From contig JASMDC010000004.1 in NCBI GenBank assembly GCA_030753015.1, positions 84,046 to 148,045 of the forward strand: DNA of 64,000 nt, read 5' to 3'. The notes below the pieces were generated by a model that was not told the origin of the DNA, did no database searches, and saw nothing but the letters and a program-made list of their open reading frames with translations. A program made the translations under genes and the position numbers. Numbering within the stretch: position 1 is the stretch's first letter; every line of letters starts with the position of its first letter. Origin of the DNA: Candidatus Undinarchaeales archaeon. GTDB lineage: Archaea > SpSt-1190 > JASMDC01. Positions 35,275 to 48,349 of the stretch are shown piece by piece.

Positions 35275-35880
35275 CTATGCTTCGTCGCTTTCTCCCAGCA
35301 ACGTGACGATGTCCTTCCTGATGCCCTCGGGCTCCCACTTGTTCATAAGGTACATCTTCCTCACGTTGTTGTCCCGGTCAATGAGAAGGGCGATCATGGA
35401 ATGGCGGAAGGTCTCGTCATCCTGCCTCTCCGCGATGATCTCGTACTCGTCGAGGATCTTTTCTATGGCTTCTTCGTCCCCACCGAGGAAGTGCCAGTTA
35501 CTGAAGTCCGCGCCGTACAGCTCCCCGTACTTCTTGAGCATACCGAGGGTGTCGCGCTCGGGATCGAACGAGACGAGAATAAGCACGGTCCTTCCACCGA
35601 GCTCCTCCCCCAGGGATTCCTGGAGCCTCCTGAAGTTCTTGGTGGTCCTCGGACACATGTTCGGCATCTCGCAGCTCGTGTAGATGAAGCTCATCACCTT
35701 CACCTTTCCAAGGAGCTGGTCCGAGGATATCGTCTCATTGTCCTGGTTCAGAAGCTCGAAATCGGGAGCCTTTTTGATGATGTGTAGAACTTTCTTCTCA
35801 GGTGCTGCTCTATAGGAGATTATAAATATACTCCCTAATACGATTATCCCTATTATTATGGCTATTATCTTCGATTCCAT
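35275..35880 (-). CDS. SCO/SenC copper chaperone
   Basis: N-terminal TM helix, APDFELLNQD, FIYTSCEMPNMCP, SFDPERDT, WHFL, FRHS. Confidence 0.88.
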   Translation of the reverse strand: MESKIIAIIIGIIVLGSIFIISYRAAPEKKVLHIIKKAPDFELLNQDNETISSDQLLGKVKVMSFIYTSCEMPNMCPRTTKNFRRLQESLGEELGGRTVLILVSFDPERDTLGMLKKYGELYGADFSNWHFLGGDEEAIEKILDEYEIIAERQDDETFRHSMIALLIDRDNNVRKMYLMNKWEPEGIRKDIVTLLGESDEA

Positions 35881-36722
35881 TATTTCACCTCGAGCTTGAC
35901 CCAGTCCGATATGTACTTCCTGCCTCCACGGTCGCCCTTTGCACCGTTCCACACGGCGAACGCAAAATAGCTTATCTCACCGGATACGAACGTAGCATCG
36001 GGCTCACTGTGGGCGGAATCGAGCCTCCGTTTGAACACCACGTGCCACCTCCCGTTGTCGTACAGGCCCCGACCCTGCACCGTCTGGTTCTCCTTCACCA
36101 CAGAGGTGCCGATCCCCGTCGCCACGAGGTCACGCACCGCCGAATTGAGCGCAGGTCGTGTGACGACGAGCACCTCCTCCTCCTCGAACGGATAATGATA
36201 GTCGGCATAGGGCGTCGACCCCTCTGGAACCTCGTTCGACCAGAACTGACCATCCAGGTCGGCCTTCCAGTGCCAGATACCGACCATGTCCTTGAAGCCC
36301 ATTATGATCGAGGAGGGCTTTGTCCTGTTCTTCAGGGGGAACATGATCGCGCAGGCGTCAGAGAACGTGTTCGTGCCAGACAGGATGTCCTCGGTTTCGT
36401 CATCCCAGCTCACATAGAGATAGATGTCCTTCCCGTTGTGGAAGGCCTTCACGGCGATGGGGGGGAGCGAACCTTTTGCGGGCCAGGGGATCACCGTGAG
36501 CTGGTAGACGAGCTCGACCTCCGTTGGTGGCTGCGTGTCCCACACCTCCAGGGAGATGCCCGTGGACAGATCTATGTCCCTGTCGACGAAGGGCGCTTCT
36601 GTAACCTCCGGTTCCCCCACCCCCACCGGGCCCTCCACCGACCGGATGAAGCCATAGGTGACGAGCACCAGGAAGGAGAGCACCAATGTGATCGATACGA
36701 TCACGACGGTCTTCGGTCTCAT
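35880..36722 (-). CDS. EbdC-like (DOMON) heme-b gamma subunit, copy 2
   Basis: N-terminal anchor; VKAFHNGKDIYLYVSWDD, DACAIMFP, IMG, WHVVFKRRL, AFAVWNG..RGGRK (Met/Lys heme ligands as in EbdC). Confidence 0.85.
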   Translation of the reverse strand: MRPKTVVIVSITLVLSFLVLVTYGFIRSVEGPVGVGEPEVTEAPFVDRDIDLSTGISLEVWDTQPPTEVELVYQLTVIPWPAKGSLPPIAVKAFHNGKDIYLYVSWDDETEDILSGTNTFSDACAIMFPLKNRTKPSSIIMGFKDMVGIWHWKADLDGQFWSNEVPEGSTPYADYHYPFEEEEVLVVTRPALNSAVRDLVATGIGTSVVKENQTVQGRGLYDNGRWHVVFKRRLDSAHSEPDATFVSGEISYFAFAVWNGAKGDRGGRKYISDWVKLEVK

Positions 36723-36816
36723 GCAGGCGTCCCTCCACGGCGATCCTCCCCGGCCCGTCCGGACACACTATCCATGAACCCCTTCAGAGGCCTACGGGAC
36801 CATTGATCGCGAGGGA

Positions 36817-44879: not shown

Positions 44880-47800
44880 TGGACGAACCCTCCCTTGATG
44901 AACCTCTTCATCACGTCGCTCTCGTACATCGGCCTCAGGCCCAGGCGGGCGGGTCTCCACAACTTGTTCCCCTCGTAACCCCCGTCCTCGGCTTTAGTGA
45001 ATTTCACGAAGCTGTCCCGGGGAGCCCCGTTGGGACAGTTCACGTCCGCCGCGAATCCCTTTCCTATCACGGGGCCGATGGTGTTCTTCCTAACGAGGCT
45101 GTCCGTCATGAGCGTGGGCCTCAGCCATCCCCTCGTGCAGCTCTGGTGTGAGCCGAACCGGTACATGGCCTGGTACCCGGTCCTCGGATTCCTGGCGAGG
45201 CCATCGGCGTTCTCCAGGTGTCCCTGGACCGAGCCATAGCTTGCGCCGTACATGTGAAACCACGAACGAGAGATCGTCGGGGGGATGCCAAGATAATATC
45301 TGGCGCGCAGCATCAGCCGCGAGAGCCTGTACTCCTCGCTTCCCTCCTTCTTCTCTCCACGATACGGTCGGTCCTCGGGATCGGCATCGACCCAGATATA
45401 ATCACCGTCCTCGATACCCAGGGCCTTGGCATCCTGAGGGTTGATATCGACGTACCCTTCACCCACCCAGGGCATGCGCTTGTCCCTTCGGTACGGATCA
45501 CCGAATGGACCGAAAAACATGGCGATGACGTCGATGTCCACGGGCATGGTATGTGAGGAATGCCGGTATTTAGGGGTGATGTAGACGTGTGAGAAGCCTT
45601 CCTTCTTCAGGGGATGGGACGACACTAAAAGCTCGTTCGGCGTCATGACGACGTTCCTCACCTGACGTACCTCGCCGGAGCGGTCGTCCTTCGCAATCCC
45701 GTACGCCTCCGGTCCCGTGGGTCTGAGGGCAGGGTGTGGTTTTGCAACGATCACGTTCGGCTCGTACATTGTCCCGTCCACTGTCTCCCGGTGAACGGGC
45801 AGGTTCTCCCCGTACTCGATGAACTCGTCCTCGTCCCGGTAGAACTCGAGCCTTCCCGTCTTGGAGTACCACTGCTTGTCCTCGTTGGACTGCTCCCAAC
45901 CGATTATCTTGGGGTAGGTGCGGCTCATCATGAGGGCGGGTATCCCCTGAGCGGAATTCTTCGCCAGTTCGGCGAAATCATACCCCTTCGTCATGGAGGT
46001 TGCGTCCATGATCCTCTGGATGTAGACGCCGACCTTCCCCTCGTTGACGAACTTCCAGTAATCGTTGAACCGTTCGTCCCCCAGGATCCTTGCCAGGGCA
46101 GCCGATACACCGGAATACACCTCGATGTCGCCCCTCGTATCGTGTATCCGCTCGAGCGGTGACGGGGTGAAGATCTGCAGGAAGGGATTGGTCACCGAGG
46201 CGGTGGCGTCCGGATGCTTGAACTCGCCCCAGGAGTCCACGGGATAGACCACGTCCGCATACTCGCAGGACGCCGTCCACCACCACTCGCTCACGGCCAT
46301 CATCTCGATCTTTGGAAGGACATTCACCACCATGTCGTAATGCCCCTTCAGGTTGCCGAAGATGGAGTTGGCGTTGCAGAACATGAGCGACTTGGTGGGG
46401 GTGGGGATGTGGGACGCGCCGGTGAACATCTTGTTCCCCACCTTCAGCGGATGGTCCCCGTGGTTGTAGTAATGCGCCGATTCGAACTTGAAGTACCGTT
46501 TCAGCCTCGAGCTCTTCTCCTCATCGAGCTCGATGTCGAACGGGTTCTCCGCGATGTACTTGCCCATGCCGTCGAAGTACGCTGCTCGGTAGTTCCCCGC
46601 AAAGCTACCGACGTTTCCGCCGTGCGTCCCCACGTTCTTGGTGAGGGCGCACACCAGAAAGATTGCCCGATCCTTCAGGTCTGCGTTGAAGAACTGGTTG
46701 GGGCCCATCCCAACGGCGATGAGGGTCTTTCCCTTGTTCGCAGCGATGTCGCGTGCAAGGCTCGTGATCGCCTCCTTGGGCGCCCACGTGAGCCTTGAGA
46801 CAGTTTCGGGATCGAAGTTCTCCGTGAGGTACTCCGATATGAGGCTGAACACGGTCCTGACCTCGACCTTCGTGTCGCCGATGTCGATCTCGCGCGCGGC
46901 ATCCAGGTCGGGTGAGATCCCTTTCTCCTTGAAGTACTTGCCGACCTCGTCACGGGTCACAGCCGCGAGTCCATCCTTGCTCTCGTCCCACACGACGAAG
47001 TTGCCCCACTCATCGAGCAGCGTCTCGGATATGACCTGCTTCCCATCCGCCTTTATCGGGGCGGGAGCGCTCTCGCCCTTCTTGAGGACGATGGTCTCCC
47101 TTCTCTCGGTGGGAGGGGCAAAGCCCGGGAGCACGTCCTCGGCACGAACCAGCTTGAGGGTGTCCATCCTCACCAGGAGCGGGAGGTCCGTTCTGCTGTT
47201 AACGTACTCCTCGTCGTACAGCCCTTCCTTGATGATCACGTAGGCCAGCCCCAGGGCGAAGACGGGATCGGAGGCGGGCCTGATGATGATCACCTCGTCG
47301 GACTTGGAGGCGACCGACGAGTATTCCACGGTCACGGTAACGACCTTGGAGCCCTTCACCCGGGCCTCGGTGAGCCAGTGGGCGTCGGGCATCTTGGTGG
47401 ATATCCAGTTCATTCCCCAGGGTATGATCAGCTTTGCGTTCTCTGCATCCACGAGGTCGAAATCAACCGTCTGCTGACCCGTCACCATGGGGTGGCCGGG
47501 AGGCAAATCCGTGTGCCAGGTGTAGTTGTCCCATCCCTTCGCCCCAAGTGCGGTCTCCGGGGTCGTCCCCCTGATATGGGTGTCAAGGAGGGCCAGGGAG
47601 TTCGCGAAGCGATACATCCCGAACACGCGTGTGATCCCCAACAACGGCATGCCACCGCGGAACTTGAGCACCTGGGTGCCTGCGCCCTTGGTGGCCTCGA
47701 TCACCTCCGGGTCGTAGAGGAGCTCGCCCGTCCTCTCGTCCGTCTGGATCCCGAGCAACTTCTGACCCGCATCTCCGCTGTAAGTGGTGGCAATGTTGAT

Positions 47801-48349
47801 CATCGACTTGGCGACTATATCGAAGATCTCGTCCCAGGAGACCTTCACGAAGTTCTCCTTGCCCCGATTGAAATACTCCAGCGGCGGTCTACCGTCCTCG
47901 CCCCGGGGGAAGCCCGCCTCGATCCATCTCTTGAAGCCCTCCCTGACCATGGGATACTTGACCCGCCTCGGTCCGTAGATCCTGCGGATCAGCGTCAGGC
48001 CCTTCTGACACAGTCGCGGCTCCCATCGTGGGGATGCGGTGTTGCCGTACAGGTCCTTCGCCTTACTATAGCCGTAGCTGGGTCCGATCCTCGTGATGAC
48101 GCCGTTCTTGACATAGGCCTTGAGGAGGCAGTTGTGGGTGTCATTGGGCGCGCACATGAAGTGGAACGTGGAGTCATGCCTGAACTGGTCCCGGTAGATC
48201 TTCTCCCAGTCCCTCTCCGGATAGTGGTCCAGGGGATTGTCGGTCGTTGTAGAGTACACGAGATTCGAGAGGAGCGGCTTGCTCAACGCAAGCCCGGCAA
48301 GACCGGTCAAGGAAAGCGTCAGGAACTTCCTACGTGGTATCTGTTTCAT
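44876..48349 (-). CDS. Tat-exported type II DMSO-reductase-family alpha subunit, periplasmic NXR/NAR-like
   Basis: Tat motif [31 protein letters not shown]0 motif; [13 protein letters not shown] (Asp Mo ligand); [17 protein letters not shown]. Reaction direction and substrate not determinable from sequence. Confidence 0.87.

What the first reader, a model, noticed from the sequence alone, without database searches (positions are those of the whole stretch)
35275..48349. Self-contained NXR/NAR-like respiratory module wired through CuA centres with no c-type cytochrome, in an apparent archaeon
Seen: one minus-strand run of alpha (Tat; [16 protein letters not shown]), beta, delta, heme-b gamma, CuA-NapH fusion, CuA cupredoxin, ahbA-B-C-D, second gamma and SCO, mostly overlapping or a few nt apart. 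It contains no c-type cytochrome and no NarI. Known: an alpha subunit of about 1150 aa with a CxPNDTHxC motif and Tat export resembles periplasmic nitrite oxidoreductases and related uncharacterised NXR/NAR enzymes more than cytoplasmic NarG. A NapH plus oxidase-subunit-II-like arrangement has been proposed for the Methanoperedens nitrate reductase. Inference: the electron path is quinol - NapH-like Fe-S - CuA - CuA - heme b - Fe-S - Mo. Nitrate respiration is the most likely function, but nitrite oxidation, which has not been demonstrated in archaea, cannot be excluded.
Basis: partly seen in the sequence, partly recalled or inferred. Interest (0 to 1): 0.85.

Follow-up and report, generated by a model that had tools for sequence, protein, structure and literature searches.

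The report
Copper-wired nitrate reductase in marine archaeon
A marine archaeon carries a complete, apparently borrowed kit for breathing nitrate, the same unusual copper-wired enzyme cluster first described in the methane-eating archaeon Methanoperedens, so it is a new host for a known but biochemically untested system.

Summary
Window 35275-48349 (minus strand) holds 12 tightly packed genes: Tat-exported molybdoenzyme alpha, beta, delta, haem-b gamma, a CuA-cupredoxin/NapH-like fusion, a second CuA cupredoxin, ahbA-B-C-D, a second gamma and SCO. None has a CxxCH motif, and no NarI was found.

The genome is archaeal and the contig fits it in composition.

The module is not new. It is the seven-gene "non-canonical nitrate reductase" (NarG-NarH-NarJ-Orf7-HCOII-NapH-HCOII) described in Methanoperedens in 2015. 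I found the same order in mcrA-bearing archaea (alpha 61-63%, beta 75-76% identical). It is also widespread in bacterial MAGs (alpha 72-78%).

In the alpha tree the window's gene sits inside a bacterial clade, apart from the mcrA-bearing archaea (AU p 9e-69). That indicates a separate acquisition.

The genome shows no haem-copper oxidase, cytochrome bd, cytochrome b or multihaem cytochrome c. Nitrate reduction is therefore far likelier than nitrite oxidation.

Two points add value:
- Its congener lacks the enzyme, AhbB, HemB and the MenA-like gene.
- Elsewhere the first CuA domain is fused to gamma, here to NapH, which supports a NapH-CuA-haem b path.

RNA-library contigs from seawater match the operon. 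Verdict: new member of a known kind; moderate interest.

The parts
44876..48349 (-). Alpha: Tat-exported Mo-bisPGD catalytic subunit of NXR/NAR type (1157 aa)
   Evidence: Pfam Molybdopterin 2.8e-26. Scores 906 bits, full length, to Kuenenia NxrA 7b04_B. Falls in a bacteria-dominated sister lineage of canonical NXR.
43740..44879 (-). Beta: Fe-S subunit (379 aa, 16 Cys)
   Evidence: Fer4_11 1.4e-27. TIGR03478 DMSO_red_II_bet scores 253.5 bits, below its cut-off of 480.7. 75-76% identical to the beta of mcrA-bearing archaea.
43157..43780 (-). Delta: NarJ/TorD-type assembly chaperone (start codon uncertain)
   Evidence: Nitrate_red_del 5.2e-14; TIGR03482 9.5e-17.
42315..43160 (-). Gamma1: haem-b subunit (EB_dh / NxrC / Orf7 type) with one N-terminal hydrophobic segment
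   Evidence: EB_dh 5.8e-31. Hits Kuenenia NxrC 7b04_C at 1.4e-19 and EbdC 2ivf_C at 3.5e-11, with MFPL and GRKS aligned. One TM-like segment at residues 7-25.
40465..42318 (-). CuA cupredoxin fused to a NapH-like polytopic Fe-S membrane protein (617 aa, about 10 hydrophobic segments)
   Evidence: Cupredoxin_1/COX2 plus Fer4_5. NosZ CuA domain 3e-12; NapH/MauN 2.7e-4. Motifs CSVTCGEFHPYM, CMVCP and CGMCLECFKTCP. H60, C95, C99, H103 and M106 are invariant in 16 homologues.
40077..40460 (-). CuA2: small membrane-anchored CuA cupredoxin (127 aa)
   Evidence: Cupredoxin_1 7e-12; NosZ CuA domain 4e-16. H73, C109, C113, H117 and M120 are invariant in 5 sequences. One TM-like segment.
39577..40068 (-). 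AhbA: siroheme decarboxylase alpha
   Evidence: NF040708 scores 140.6 bits against a cut-off of 140.
39044..39574 (-). AhbB: siroheme decarboxylase beta
   Evidence: NF040707 scores 174.7 bits against a cut-off of 125. It is the only match over the cut-off in the genome, and the congener G001 has none.
37902..38972 (-). AhbC-like radical SAM/SPASM protein (didecarboxysiroheme deacetylase)
   Evidence: TIGR04546 is the best hit at 528.6 bits, below its cut-off of 650. Best archaeal relatives are 54-59% identical.
36817..37905 (-). AhbD-like radical SAM/SPASM protein (haem b synthase)
   Evidence: TIGR04545 is the best hit at 416.5 bits, below its cut-off of 500.
35880..36722 (-). Gamma2: second EB_dh haem-b subunit
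   Evidence: EB_dh 5.6e-29. 50% identical to gamma1.
35275..35880 (-). SCO1/SenC-type copper chaperone, membrane anchored
   Evidence: SCO1-SenC 5.7e-26. An SCO gene also sits inside the bacterial cluster L003.
48586..50115 (-). PNPOx-like domain fused to a MenA-type prenyltransferase, directly upstream. Possibly part of the same respiratory gain; not part of the conserved module.
   Evidence: UbiA 6e-35 plus PNPOx_N 3e-10. TIGR00751 menA scores 126.1 against a cut-off of 102.15. Not found in G001. Not found beside the module in any other locus.

Best explanation
This is an outward-facing (Tat-exported) respiratory nitrate reductase of the NXR-like branch of type II Mo enzymes. It is orthologous to the 'non-canonical nitrate reductase' of Methanoperedens.

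Proposed working:
1. The NapH-like membrane protein takes electrons at the membrane, from a prenylated quinol or, less likely, a cytoplasmic Fe-S donor.
2. It passes them to its own outward-facing CuA domain.
3. They move on, by way of the second CuA cupredoxin, to haem b of the gamma subunit.
4. They run through the Fe-S chain of beta and alpha to the Mo centre, where nitrate is reduced to nitrite.

The operon also carries what the host lineage otherwise lacks: haem b synthesis from siroheme (ahbABCD) and a copper chaperone (SCO). A MenA-like prenyltransferase lies next door. The enzyme core came from a bacteria-dominated gene pool, in a separate event from the one that gave Methanoperedens its copy.

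Shown here: gene content, cofactor motifs, orthology, phylogenetic position, lack of oxidases, and the contrast with the congener.

Inferred: substrate and direction, the order of the carriers, the electron donor, and whether the genes arrived in one transfer or several.
For: Identity of the enzyme: alpha scores 906 bits to Kuenenia NxrA and under 190 to PcrA, EbdA and NarG. Gamma hits NxrC and EbdC.

Same module as in Methanoperedens:
- Arshad 2015 lists NarG(Tat)-NarH-NarJ-Orf7-HCOII-NapH(9 TM)-HCOII, all highly transcribed in a nitrate-reducing culture (PMC4683180, section 13 read).
- A 2026 paper calls it the non-canonical nitrate reductase (PMC13079737, passages).
- 6 of 201 genomes in one archaeal order hold alpha at 62-64% identity. 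All 6 are among the 49 genomes of one genus.
- 3 of 3 of these genomes tested carry mcrA.
- Their loci show the same gene order. Identities to the window: beta 75-76%, delta 59-62%, gamma 50-52%, NapH 57%, CuA2 45-50%.

Direction of the reaction, in a genome that is 98.9% complete:
- No COX1, no cytochrome bd, no cytochrome b, no NarI.
- 0 of 7398 ORFs hold two or more CxxCH motifs.
- Anaerobic ribonucleotide reductase, a flavodiiron protein and hemerythrin genes lie nearby.

Wiring:
- CuA ligands are invariant.
- The first CuA domain is fused to the C-terminus of gamma in L004 and L008 (EB_dh plus COX2). It is fused to NapH in the window, L003 and L013. It is a separate gene in the mcrA-bearing archaea.
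- Of the 120 best NapH homologues, 59 are fused and 61 are not.

Cofactor supply:
- A full siroheme gene set lies on contig C46.
- TatC is present.

Acquisition:
- The congener G001 (99% complete) lacks alpha, AhbB, HemB and the MenA-like gene.
- 0 of 15 same-class genomes hold alpha or AhbC.
- The window's alpha is nested in starred clades of 18 and 32 rows that are otherwise bacterial.

In situ: contigs from RNA libraries of 2 studies (X16 and X17; X19) match alpha through CuA2 with 0 differences in the listed pieces.
Against: - No assay exists for this module in any organism that I could read. The Methanoperedens assignment itself rests on physiology, transcription and a complexome paper that I did not see.
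- NXR-type enzymes are reversible, so sequence cannot fix the direction.
- The quinol donor is weak. Neither MqnA/D nor MenB over its cut-off was found, so only the MenA-like gene speaks for a naphthoquinone.
- In known NapH the Fe-S clusters face the cytoplasm (recalled). How electrons would reach an outward CuA domain is unknown.
- The presumed Met haem ligand of gamma is Leu in L002 and Ala in L004 and L008.
- ahbC and ahbD score below the curated cut-offs. AhbC is as close to archaeal AhbC (54-59%) as to the copies beside bacterial modules (45-54%). A single-step transfer of the whole cassette is therefore not shown.
- The trees of the small subunits are unresolved, and beta weakly joins the mcrA-bearing archaea (support 83).
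- RNA-library contigs cannot prove transcription (note).
- No dedicated respiratory nitrite reductase was found: no NirK, and only a Sir/NirA-family gene inside a sulphate-assimilation cluster.
Confidence: 0.65

Rival explanations
1. The enzyme works in the oxidative direction as a nitrite oxidoreductase. That would make this a nitrite-oxidising archaeon, with the high-potential CuA centres carrying electrons away from the enzyme.
For: - Alpha is NXR-like (906 bits to Kuenenia NxrA).
- NXR enzymes are bidirectional, and nitrite-oxidising archaea have been proposed (Kitzinger 2018, PMC6050957, passages).
- CuA centres are high-potential carriers (established knowledge, recalled).
- The DNA occurs in seawater metagenomes of 11 studies.
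Against: - No haem-copper oxidase, cytochrome bd, cytochrome b or multihaem cytochrome c was found in a 98.9% complete genome.
- Alpha lies outside the canonical NXR clade. That clade holds P0243, which scores 1590 bits to Kuenenia NxrA.
- The orthologous module serves nitrate reduction in Methanoperedens (PMC4683180; PMC7327174, passages).
- A NapH-type partner would have to reduce quinone uphill.
Confidence: 0.04
2. The catalytic subunit acts on another substrate (chlorate, perchlorate, selenate, or an unknown oxyanion or organic compound) and not on nitrate.
For: - Type II Mo enzymes have switched substrate repeatedly.
- Curated NCBIfam cut-offs are not reached for any named family. The best is TIGR03479 at 305 bits against 984.75; narG scores 169 against 1084.
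- No member of the window's own subclade has been assayed, as far as my searches show.
Against: - Scores to PcrA (185 bits) and EbdA (139 bits) are far below the score to NxrA (906 bits).
- The nearest organism with known physiology that carries the same module is a nitrate reducer (PMC4683180).
- Genes typical of nitrosative stress lie nearby (flavodiiron protein, hemerythrin, DUF438/DUF2249).
Confidence: 0.1
3. The function is the same (nitrate reduction) but the input differs. The NapH-like protein is not a quinol dehydrogenase. Instead it conducts electrons from a cytoplasmic Fe-S donor such as ferredoxin across the membrane to CuA, as has been discussed for NosR.
For: - No menaquinone head-group pathway was detected.
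- The NapH-like part carries CxxCP and 4Fe-4S motifs. In NapH and NosR these face the cytoplasm (recalled).
- The layout (outward redox domain, NapH-like membrane core, Fe-S motifs) parallels NosR. An earlier scan note, e1-3353025, names NosR as the closest known.
Against: - A MenA-type prenyltransferase over its curated cut-off lies directly upstream and is missing from the congener.
- A TtrA/NrfD-type module in the same window also implies a quinone pool.
- NapH is held to be a quinol dehydrogenase in E. coli (cited in PMC4683180).
Confidence: 0.2
4. The contig is a mis-binned bacterial contig, so the 'archaeal' host is an artefact.
For: - The closest alpha homologues are bacterial (72-78% identity).
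- The bin has 5% estimated contamination.
Against: - Operon GC3 is 0.74-0.86, against 0.42-0.52 in the closest bacterial genes and a host median of 0.76.
- Contig GC is 0.605 and its tetranucleotide profile ranks 10th of 25 large contigs.
- The flanking Lrp gene is 80% identical in protein to a gene of the congener archaeon, and the C-terminal part of orf573 matches it at 74-76% in DNA. That domain recurs on 7 other contigs of the bin.
- No sigma-70 was found anywhere in the bin.
- A 96% identical partial protein is filed under an archaeal label (P0070).
Confidence: 0.03

Closest known systems
Methanoperedens 'non-canonical nitrate reductase' cluster NarG-NarH-NarJ-Orf7-HCOII-NapH-HCOII (Arshad et al. 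2015, PMC4683180; PMC13079737)
   Same: - Same gene order.
- Tat-exported alpha and an Orf7/EB_dh haem-b subunit.
- NapH-like protein with extra C-terminal helices, and two CuA cupredoxins with one helix each.
- No NarI.
- Orthologous at sequence level to clusters in mcrA-bearing archaea: alpha 61-63%, beta 75-76%.
   Different: - Here the first cupredoxin is fused to NapH.
- ahbABCD, a second gamma and SCO are in the same transcription unit.
- The host has no mcrA and no multihaem cytochromes c.
- Alpha belongs to a different bacterial-dominated subclade; one archaeal clade is rejected (AU p 9e-69).
Kuenenia stuttgartiensis nitrite oxidoreductase NxrABC (PDB 7b04)
   Same: Full-length homology of alpha (906 bits) and gamma (7b04_C, 1.4e-19). 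The CxPNDTHxC and WH(G/T)D motifs are shared.
   Different: - The window's alpha lies in a sister lineage, not the canonical clade.
- The partners are CuA/NapH proteins. The c-type cytochromes of the anammox cluster are recalled, not tested here.
- No anammox or oxidase context.
NapGH / NosGH quinol-dehydrogenase modules and NosR
   Same: A NapH/MauN-family membrane core with CxxCP and ferredoxin-type motifs. The CuA domains are most like the CuA domain of NosZ (4e-16).
   Different: - No NapG, NapAB or NosZ.
- Five extra C-terminal helices.
- An outward CuA domain sits where NosR has a flavin-binding domain (NosR anatomy recalled).
E. coli NarGHI and archaeal pNar (Haloferax/Pyrobaculum NarGH with NarM or Orf7)
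   Same: Mo-bisPGD alpha, Fe-S beta and a NarJ-like chaperone. An outward orientation and an Orf7-type haem-b subunit, as in haloarchaeal pNar (as described in PMC4683180).
   Different: - NarG scores only 138 bits.
- No NarI in the genome.
- NarM and NarC were not searched for.

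Membership tests
Methanoperedens-type non-canonical nitrate reductase module | Gene order alpha-beta-delta(NarJ)-gamma(Orf7)-HCOII-NapH-HCOII | tested here: met
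   Window order. It matches Table 1 of PMC4683180 and the loci L041 and L042 of mcrA-bearing archaea. The only change is that the first HCOII is fused to NapH.
Methanoperedens-type non-canonical nitrate reductase module | Sequence orthology of all seven components | tested here: met
   Identities by tblastn: alpha 61-63%, beta 75-76%, delta 59-62%, gamma 50-52%, CuA-a 53-56%, NapH 57%, CuA2 45-50%.
Methanoperedens-type non-canonical nitrate reductase module | NapH-like protein with 4 + 5 helices; cupredoxins with one helix each | tested here: met
   A crude hydropathy scan gives about 10 segments in the fusion (one leader, one after CuA, the rest in NapH) and 1 in CuA2. No dedicated topology predictor was run.
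Methanoperedens-type non-canonical nitrate reductase module | Nitrate reductase activity of the complex | not testable with these tools
   Needs biochemistry. In Methanoperedens it is inferred from physiology and transcription (PMC4683180).
Type II DMSO-reductase family enzyme (alpha/beta/gamma/delta) | Tat leader, Mo-bisPGD domains, N-terminal Fe-S motif, Asp-containing WHxD segment | tested here: met
   RRKFL leader, PF00384, CAPNDTHNC and WHTDLPP aligned with Kuenenia NxrA. That the Asp is the Mo ligand is recalled, not tested.
Type II DMSO-reductase family enzyme (alpha/beta/gamma/delta) | Reaches NCBIfam curated cut-offs (TIGR03479/03478/03477/03482) | tested here: not met
   Scores against cut-offs: 305 vs 984.75; 253.5 vs 480.7; 112.1 vs 169.85; 61.6 vs 152.3. 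These four are the best or joint-best families, but all fall below the cut-offs.
Canonical periplasmic nitrite oxidoreductase (Nitrospira/Nitrospina/anammox type) | Alpha falls inside the canonical NxrA clade | tested here: not met
   The clade marked by P0243 (1590 bits to Kuenenia NxrA) is separate from the 32-row clade that holds the window (100*). No named Nitrospira, Nitrospina or Nitrotoga sequences were available for the tree.
Canonical periplasmic nitrite oxidoreductase (Nitrospira/Nitrospina/anammox type) | A high-potential acceptor chain (cytochrome c and a terminal oxidase) in the genome | tested here: not met
   No COX1, no cytochrome bd, and no ORF with two or more CxxCH motifs.
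NarGHI respiratory nitrate reductase | NarI dihaem membrane subunit; cytoplasmic alpha without a Tat leader | tested here: not met
   PF02665 finds nothing in the genome. Alpha has a Tat leader. TIGR01580 scores 169 against a cut-off of 1084.
CuA cupredoxin (COX2 / NosZ C-terminal domain type) | Ligand set H ... Cx3Cx3Hx2M | tested here: met
   Both proteins hold the loop. H73, C109, C113, H117 and M120 are invariant in 5 of 5 sequences. H60, C95, C99, H103 and M106 are invariant in 16 of 16. Copper content is not testable here.
Alternative haem biosynthesis AhbABCD | All four enzymes over curated cut-offs, plus a siroheme supply | tested here: inconclusive
   AhbA and AhbB are over their cut-offs. 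AhbC and AhbD are best hits but below theirs. The siroheme pathway genes are complete on C46. No NirS-type user of haem d1 was looked for directly.

The most novel reading that the evidence does not exclude
The NapH-like protein with its two CuA cupredoxins is a portable electron-input unit that needs no cytochrome c, and it lets organisms without any haem-c machinery take up nitrate respiration.

In this marine archaeon the unit sits with its own haem b pathway and copper chaperone, next to a MenA-like gene. The congener and the sampled class relatives show no haem synthesis at all. On this reading the lineage went from non-respiring to nitrate-respiring by acquiring a package that supplies its own cofactors.

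The gamma-CuA and CuA-NapH fusions mark the physical order of the chain.
Probability: 0.4. Interest if true: 0.65.

Novelty: new member of a known kind. Interest (0 to 1): 0.45.

Why it matters
- **Wider reach of the system.** The Methanoperedens-type copper-wired nitrate reductase is not a peculiarity of methanotrophs. It is a widely exchanged module. It entered archaea at least twice, and an archaeon found in seawater metagenomes of 11 studies carries it, with matching contigs in RNA libraries.
- **Nitrogen-cycle surveys.** NXR-like 'nxrA' genes of this lineage should not be counted as nitrite oxidation.
- **Bioenergetics.** The alternative domain fusions give a concrete, testable order for a respiratory chain that uses CuA centres where cytochromes b/c would normally serve. 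This operon, and the 59 other CuA-NapH fusion proteins among the 120 best NapH homologues, offer compact constructs for testing it.
- **Evolution.** The contrast with a congener that lacks haem synthesis is a clean case of a lineage gaining respiration.

Tried and rejected
- **Complex prediction.** Complex prediction on gamma1 (30-281), the CuA domain of the fusion (22-117) and CuA2 (28-127) as partner gave no answer: score 0.09 against a mark of 0.32. It counts neither for nor against binding.
- **rRNA and other RNA.** No 16S rRNA was found in the genome. No Rfam family was found in the window.
- **Placing the archaeon.** The Atlas search with aEF-2 gave only 'Archaea, commonest Methanobacteriota'. 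The only name-like hint is the label 'Methanopyri archaeon' on a 96% identical partial protein, yet the genome has no mcrA.
- **Insertion boundaries.** I compared the window with the congener. A DNA search of window 32000-51900 matched only 34354-35172 and 50595-51104. Synteny around the Lrp gene is not kept. No boundaries could be drawn.
- **Trees of beta, delta, gamma and NapH** (9-12 rows; quick search, no mixture model) are poorly resolved and do not settle the donor.
- **Thermogutta terrifontis** was considered as a cultured carrier. Its cluster is described with NarI and a bc1 complex, not with CuA/NapH (10.1101/179903, passages).
- **Literature.** The searches 'NapH + cupredoxin + nitrite oxidoreductase' and 'nitrite oxidoreductase + Omnitrophica + NxrA' found nothing on this module.
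- **RNA cover.** Stretches without RNA-library cover (for example 34268-35535 and 37438-38705) and the small-share run X20 are not used as evidence.
- **Named references for the tree.** Named NxrA of Nitrospira, Nitrospina and Nitrotoga, and SerA and ClrA, were not available as stored sequences.
- **Substrate pocket.** Substrate-pocket residues were not analysed.

Full report
**1. What is in the sequence**

The minus strand of window 35275-48349 carries 12 genes. They were assigned by Pfam and NCBIfam.

- Alpha, 44876-48349: 1157 aa, with an RRKFL Tat-type leader, CAPNDTHNC and WHTDLPP.
- Beta, 43740-44879: 16 Cys.
- Delta, 43157-43780: a NarJ-type chaperone.
- Gamma1, 42315-43160: EB_dh family.
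- A fusion of a CuA cupredoxin with a NapH-like membrane Fe-S protein, 40465-42318.
- CuA2, a second small CuA cupredoxin, 40077-40460.
- ahbA (39577-40068) and ahbB (39044-39574), both over NCBIfam's curated cut-offs.
- ahbC-like (37902-38972) and ahbD-like (36817-37905). These are best hits, but below the cut-offs.
- Gamma2, 35880-36722: 50% identical to gamma1.
- SCO, 35275-35880.

Most junctions overlap by 1-4 nt or lie 2-8 nt apart.

None of the 12 proteins has CxxCH or CxxCK. Both cupredoxins carry the CuA loop Cx3Cx3Hx2M, and the ligand positions are invariant in 5 of 5 and 16 of 16 aligned homologues. No protein of the operon hits NarI, and PF02665 finds nothing in the genome.

**2. 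Whose DNA it is**

The window is the last 64 kb of a 148-kb contig (C62). The bin is 3.85 Mb in 117 contigs, 98.9% complete, with 5% estimated contamination.

The bin is archaeal:
- Ribosomal protein L31e is present.
- aEF-2 scores 1093 bits, and its Atlas neighbours are archaeal.
- TatC is present.
- No sigma-70 region 2 and no tmRNA were found.
- It has no mcrA.

The contig belongs to the bin:
- GC is 0.605, against 0.603 for the genome.
- Its tetranucleotide profile ranks 10th of 25 large contigs.
- GC3 of the operon genes is 0.74-0.86. The median of long ORFs in the genome is 0.76. The closest bacterial alpha genes have 0.42-0.52.
- The flanking Lrp gene is 80% identical in protein to a gene of the same-genus genome G001. 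The C-terminal part of orf573, about 100 bp from SCO, matches G001 at 74-76% in DNA and recurs on 7 other contigs of the bin.

I could not name the lineage. No 16S rRNA is assembled. A 96% identical partial protein in NCBI is labelled 'Methanopyri archaeon'. The 15 same-class genomes drawn by the tool are only 0.6-1.2 Mb.

**3. What the enzyme is related to**

Against solved structures, alpha scores as follows:
- 906 bits, full length, to Kuenenia NxrA (7b04_B)
- 185 bits to PcrA
- 139 bits to EbdA
- 138 bits to E. coli NarG

Gamma1 hits Kuenenia NxrC and EbdC.

In a library of 5.8 billion proteins, the best 120 alpha homologues include one 96% identical partial protein (P0070). The other 119 are 61-78% identical. 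Where they are named, they come from bacterial MAGs: Omnitrophota, Planctomycetota, Spirochaetales. The same was seen in GTDB genomes, with 13 loci.

I built a 39-row alpha tree (IQ-TREE quick search, LG+G4).
- The window and the 96% partial sequence form a pair (support 100).
- The pair is nested in starred clades of 18 and 32 rows that are otherwise bacterial.
- The canonical NXR clade was located by P0243, which scores 1590 bits to Kuenenia NxrA. It is separate.
- P0242 (SAR202-like; 1059 bits) branches between the two.

The placement therefore rests on these proxies and on PDB scores.

**4. The architecture is already known**

Arshad et al. 2015 (PMC4683180, section 13 read) describe the conserved nar operon of Methanoperedens as NarG (Tat), NarH, NarJ, Orf7 (a b-type cytochrome), HCOII, NapH (9 helices: four plus five extra) and HCOII. 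All genes were highly transcribed.

Three later papers, read as passages, add to this.
- PMC13079737 (2026) calls it the 'non-canonical nitrate reductase' and reports a copy on a mobile element.
- Leu et al. 2020 (PMC7327174) place the Methanoperedens protein with NxrA.
- Dalcin Martins et al. 2023 (PMC10732223) place it in a clade with anammox and NOB NxrA.

I tested the link by sequence.
- In one archaeal order, 6 of 201 genomes hold alpha at 62-64% identity. All 6 are among the 49 genomes of one genus.
- 3 of 3 genomes tested carry mcrA.
- Two loci show the full order alpha-beta-delta-gamma-CuA-NapH-CuA2. Identities to the window are beta 75-76%, delta 59-62%, gamma 50-52%, NapH 57% and CuA2 45-50%.

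The same order occurs in the bacterial loci L001-L004, L007, L008 and L013. In some of them ahb genes are adjacent, and L003 has an SCO gene inside the cluster.

The NapH-like protein has 444 homologues at E <= 1e-10 among the 8000 candidates scored. Of the best 120, 59 carry the N-terminal CuA domain and 61 do not, and none has CxxCH.

A search for Orf7 + NapH + NarG found 7 papers (6 listed after merging copies). The 4 relevant ones are all on Methanoperedens or ANME archaea; the 2 others listed are unrelated coronavirus papers.

Two earlier notes of this scan (e1-3353030, e1-3353025) had reached the same identification on bacterial DNA.

**5. Two entries into archaea**

The mcrA-bearing archaeal alphas form their own clade (support 100). 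That clade sits inside a 10-row starred clade with Planctomycetota and Omnitrophota sequences, away from the window's 18-row clade.

Forcing all six archaeal rows together costs 600 log-likelihood units (AU p 9e-69). The group was named after I had seen the window's position.

Among 400 other archaeal genomes, sampled from about 139 families, only two hold an NXR-type alpha at E <= 1e-50, at 42-44% identity. One of them, G241, falls in the canonical NXR clade. Its order is beta-delta-alpha-gamma, with no CuA or NapH gene nearby.

The small-subunit trees are unresolved, and beta weakly joins the mcrA-bearing archaea (support 83). A mosaic history cannot be excluded.

**6. Direction and context**

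The genome shows:
- no haem-copper oxidase subunit I
- no cytochrome bd
- no cytochrome b of the bc type
- no NarI
- 0 of 7398 ORFs with two or more CxxCH motifs; 44 have one

The window also encodes:
- an anaerobic ribonucleotide reductase
- a TtrA-like molybdoenzyme with NrfD and Fe-S subunits
- a flavodiiron protein, two hemerythrin-domain proteins and DUF438/DUF2249

This is the gene set of an anaerobe that handles nitrogen oxides. With no known acceptor for nitrite-derived electrons, nitrate reduction is the supported direction.

The fate of nitrite is open. No NirK was found. The only NIR_SIR protein lies in a sulphate-assimilation and siroheme cluster.

**7. Wiring**

Three states of the first CuA domain occur:
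- a free gene, in the mcrA-bearing archaea (Arshad Table 1)
- fused to the C-terminus of gamma, in the Planctomycetota loci L004 and L008 (EB_dh plus COX2 in one 464-466 aa protein)
- fused to the N-terminus of NapH, in the window, L003 and L013

By the usual logic of domain fusions, this places that CuA domain next to both gamma and NapH. The position of CuA2 is not fixed. A complex prediction gave no answer.

The donor is the weakest link. A MenA-type prenyltransferase fused to a PNPOx-like domain lies directly upstream. However, neither MqnA/D nor MenB over its cut-off was found.

**8. A gained respiratory toolkit**

The same-genus genome G001 (3.6 Mb, 99% complete) has:
- no alpha homologue
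- no AhbB over the cut-off
- no HemB
- no MenA-like gene

None of the 15 same-class genomes has alpha or AhbC.

The window's genome, in contrast, has a complete siroheme gene set on contig C46: HemA, HemL, HemB, HemC, a CobA/HemD fusion, and SirC. Its only AhbA and AhbB genes are in this operon.

With no cytochrome b, NarI or cytochromes c found, the two gamma subunits are the only haem proteins that I identified.

AhbC is 54-59% identical to the best archaeal AhbC. It is 45-54% identical to the copies beside bacterial modules. The ahb genes may therefore have a different source from the enzyme core.

**9. Occurrence and expression**

Window 40000-48400 is held in 20 runs of 11 studies, labelled seawater or marine metagenome. 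Four of the 20 runs are marked as possible sources of this DNA.

Contigs from RNA libraries match alpha, beta, gamma1, the fusion, CuA2, the MenA-like gene and Lrp with 0 differences in the listed pieces. The runs are X16 and X17 (one study) and X19 (another).

Contigs cannot show strand or expression level, and DNA carry-over is possible. This is consistent with expression but does not prove it.

**10. Verdict**

Its novelty is lower than scored. The module is the published Methanoperedens type, and it is common in bacteria.

What is new:
- the host, a non-methanotrophic marine archaeon
- the independent acquisition
- the co-location with haem b synthesis, SCO and a second gamma, beside a MenA-like gene
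- the contrast with a haem-less congener
- the fusion evidence for the order of the chain

Supplements of the cited papers were closed, and Berger et al. 2021 was not readable. Either may already contain protein-level evidence for the complex.

Noticed in passing
window 5303-9909 (-): A second respiratory molybdoenzyme module. It comprises a Tat-leader TtrA-like alpha (NF011567 at 588 bits, below its cut-off of 1750), an NrfD-type membrane subunit and a 4Fe-4S subunit. The substrate is unknown.
   Followed up: partly
window 48586-50115 (-): A MenA-type prenyltransferase fused to an N-terminal PNPOx-like domain. The genome shows neither MqnA/D nor MenB over its cut-off, so the source of its aromatic substrate is unexplained.
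   Followed up: partly
L004 15221-16615 and L008 15190-16590 (Planctomycetota MAG loci): The gamma subunit (EB_dh) is fused to a CuA cupredoxin and a C-terminal helix, with NapH as a separate gene. This is an alternative fusion state of the same module.
   Followed up: yes
alignment A1 (gamma homologues), column of window gamma1 M128: The Met that aligns with the MFP(L/V) motif of EbdC and NxrC is Leu in L002 and Ala in L004 and L008. The Lys (K269) is invariant. Haem ligation may differ among members.
   Followed up: no
L027 (G241:C8:28000-47900): A different archaeon (2.2 Mb, no mcrA) carries beta-delta-alpha-gamma of the canonical NXR clade. It groups with P0243, which scores 1590 bits to Kuenenia NxrA. 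No CuA or NapH genes lie nearby.
   Followed up: partly
G000 vs G001 and class relatives: Two genomes of 3.6-3.8 Mb form a genus. The 15 same-class genomes drawn for comparison are all 0.6-1.2 Mb, and no same-family or same-order genomes were drawn. The two congeners share only 74-79% DNA identity in conserved genes, with little synteny.
   Followed up: no
window 33463-35184 (+) and 7 other contigs of G000: orf573 has no Pfam or NCBIfam hit. Its C-terminal domain of about 270 aa is a multi-copy family in this genome (8 further copies at 27-68% identity) and is also present in G001.
   Followed up: no
window 28210-33283: A cluster of a DUF438 + hemerythrin + DUF2249 protein, a PadR/ArsR-like regulator, a flavodiiron (FprA-like) protein, a hemerythrin and an ArsR-type regulator. 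It sits next to the operon and suggests NO or nitrite stress handling.
   Followed up: partly
L036 (G000:C46:12000-31900): One cluster joins sulphate adenylyltransferase, SirC, HemA, HemC, a CobA/HemD fusion, HemL, HemB, a NirA/Sir-family reductase and cysteine synthase. A protein with an RnfG-like domain lies beside it.
   Followed up: partly
window 47366-47396: In all four RNA runs, contigs of other organisms match only this stretch of about 31 nt in alpha and diverge on both sides. It is a highly conserved segment of the gene family in seawater communities (table 7).
   Followed up: no
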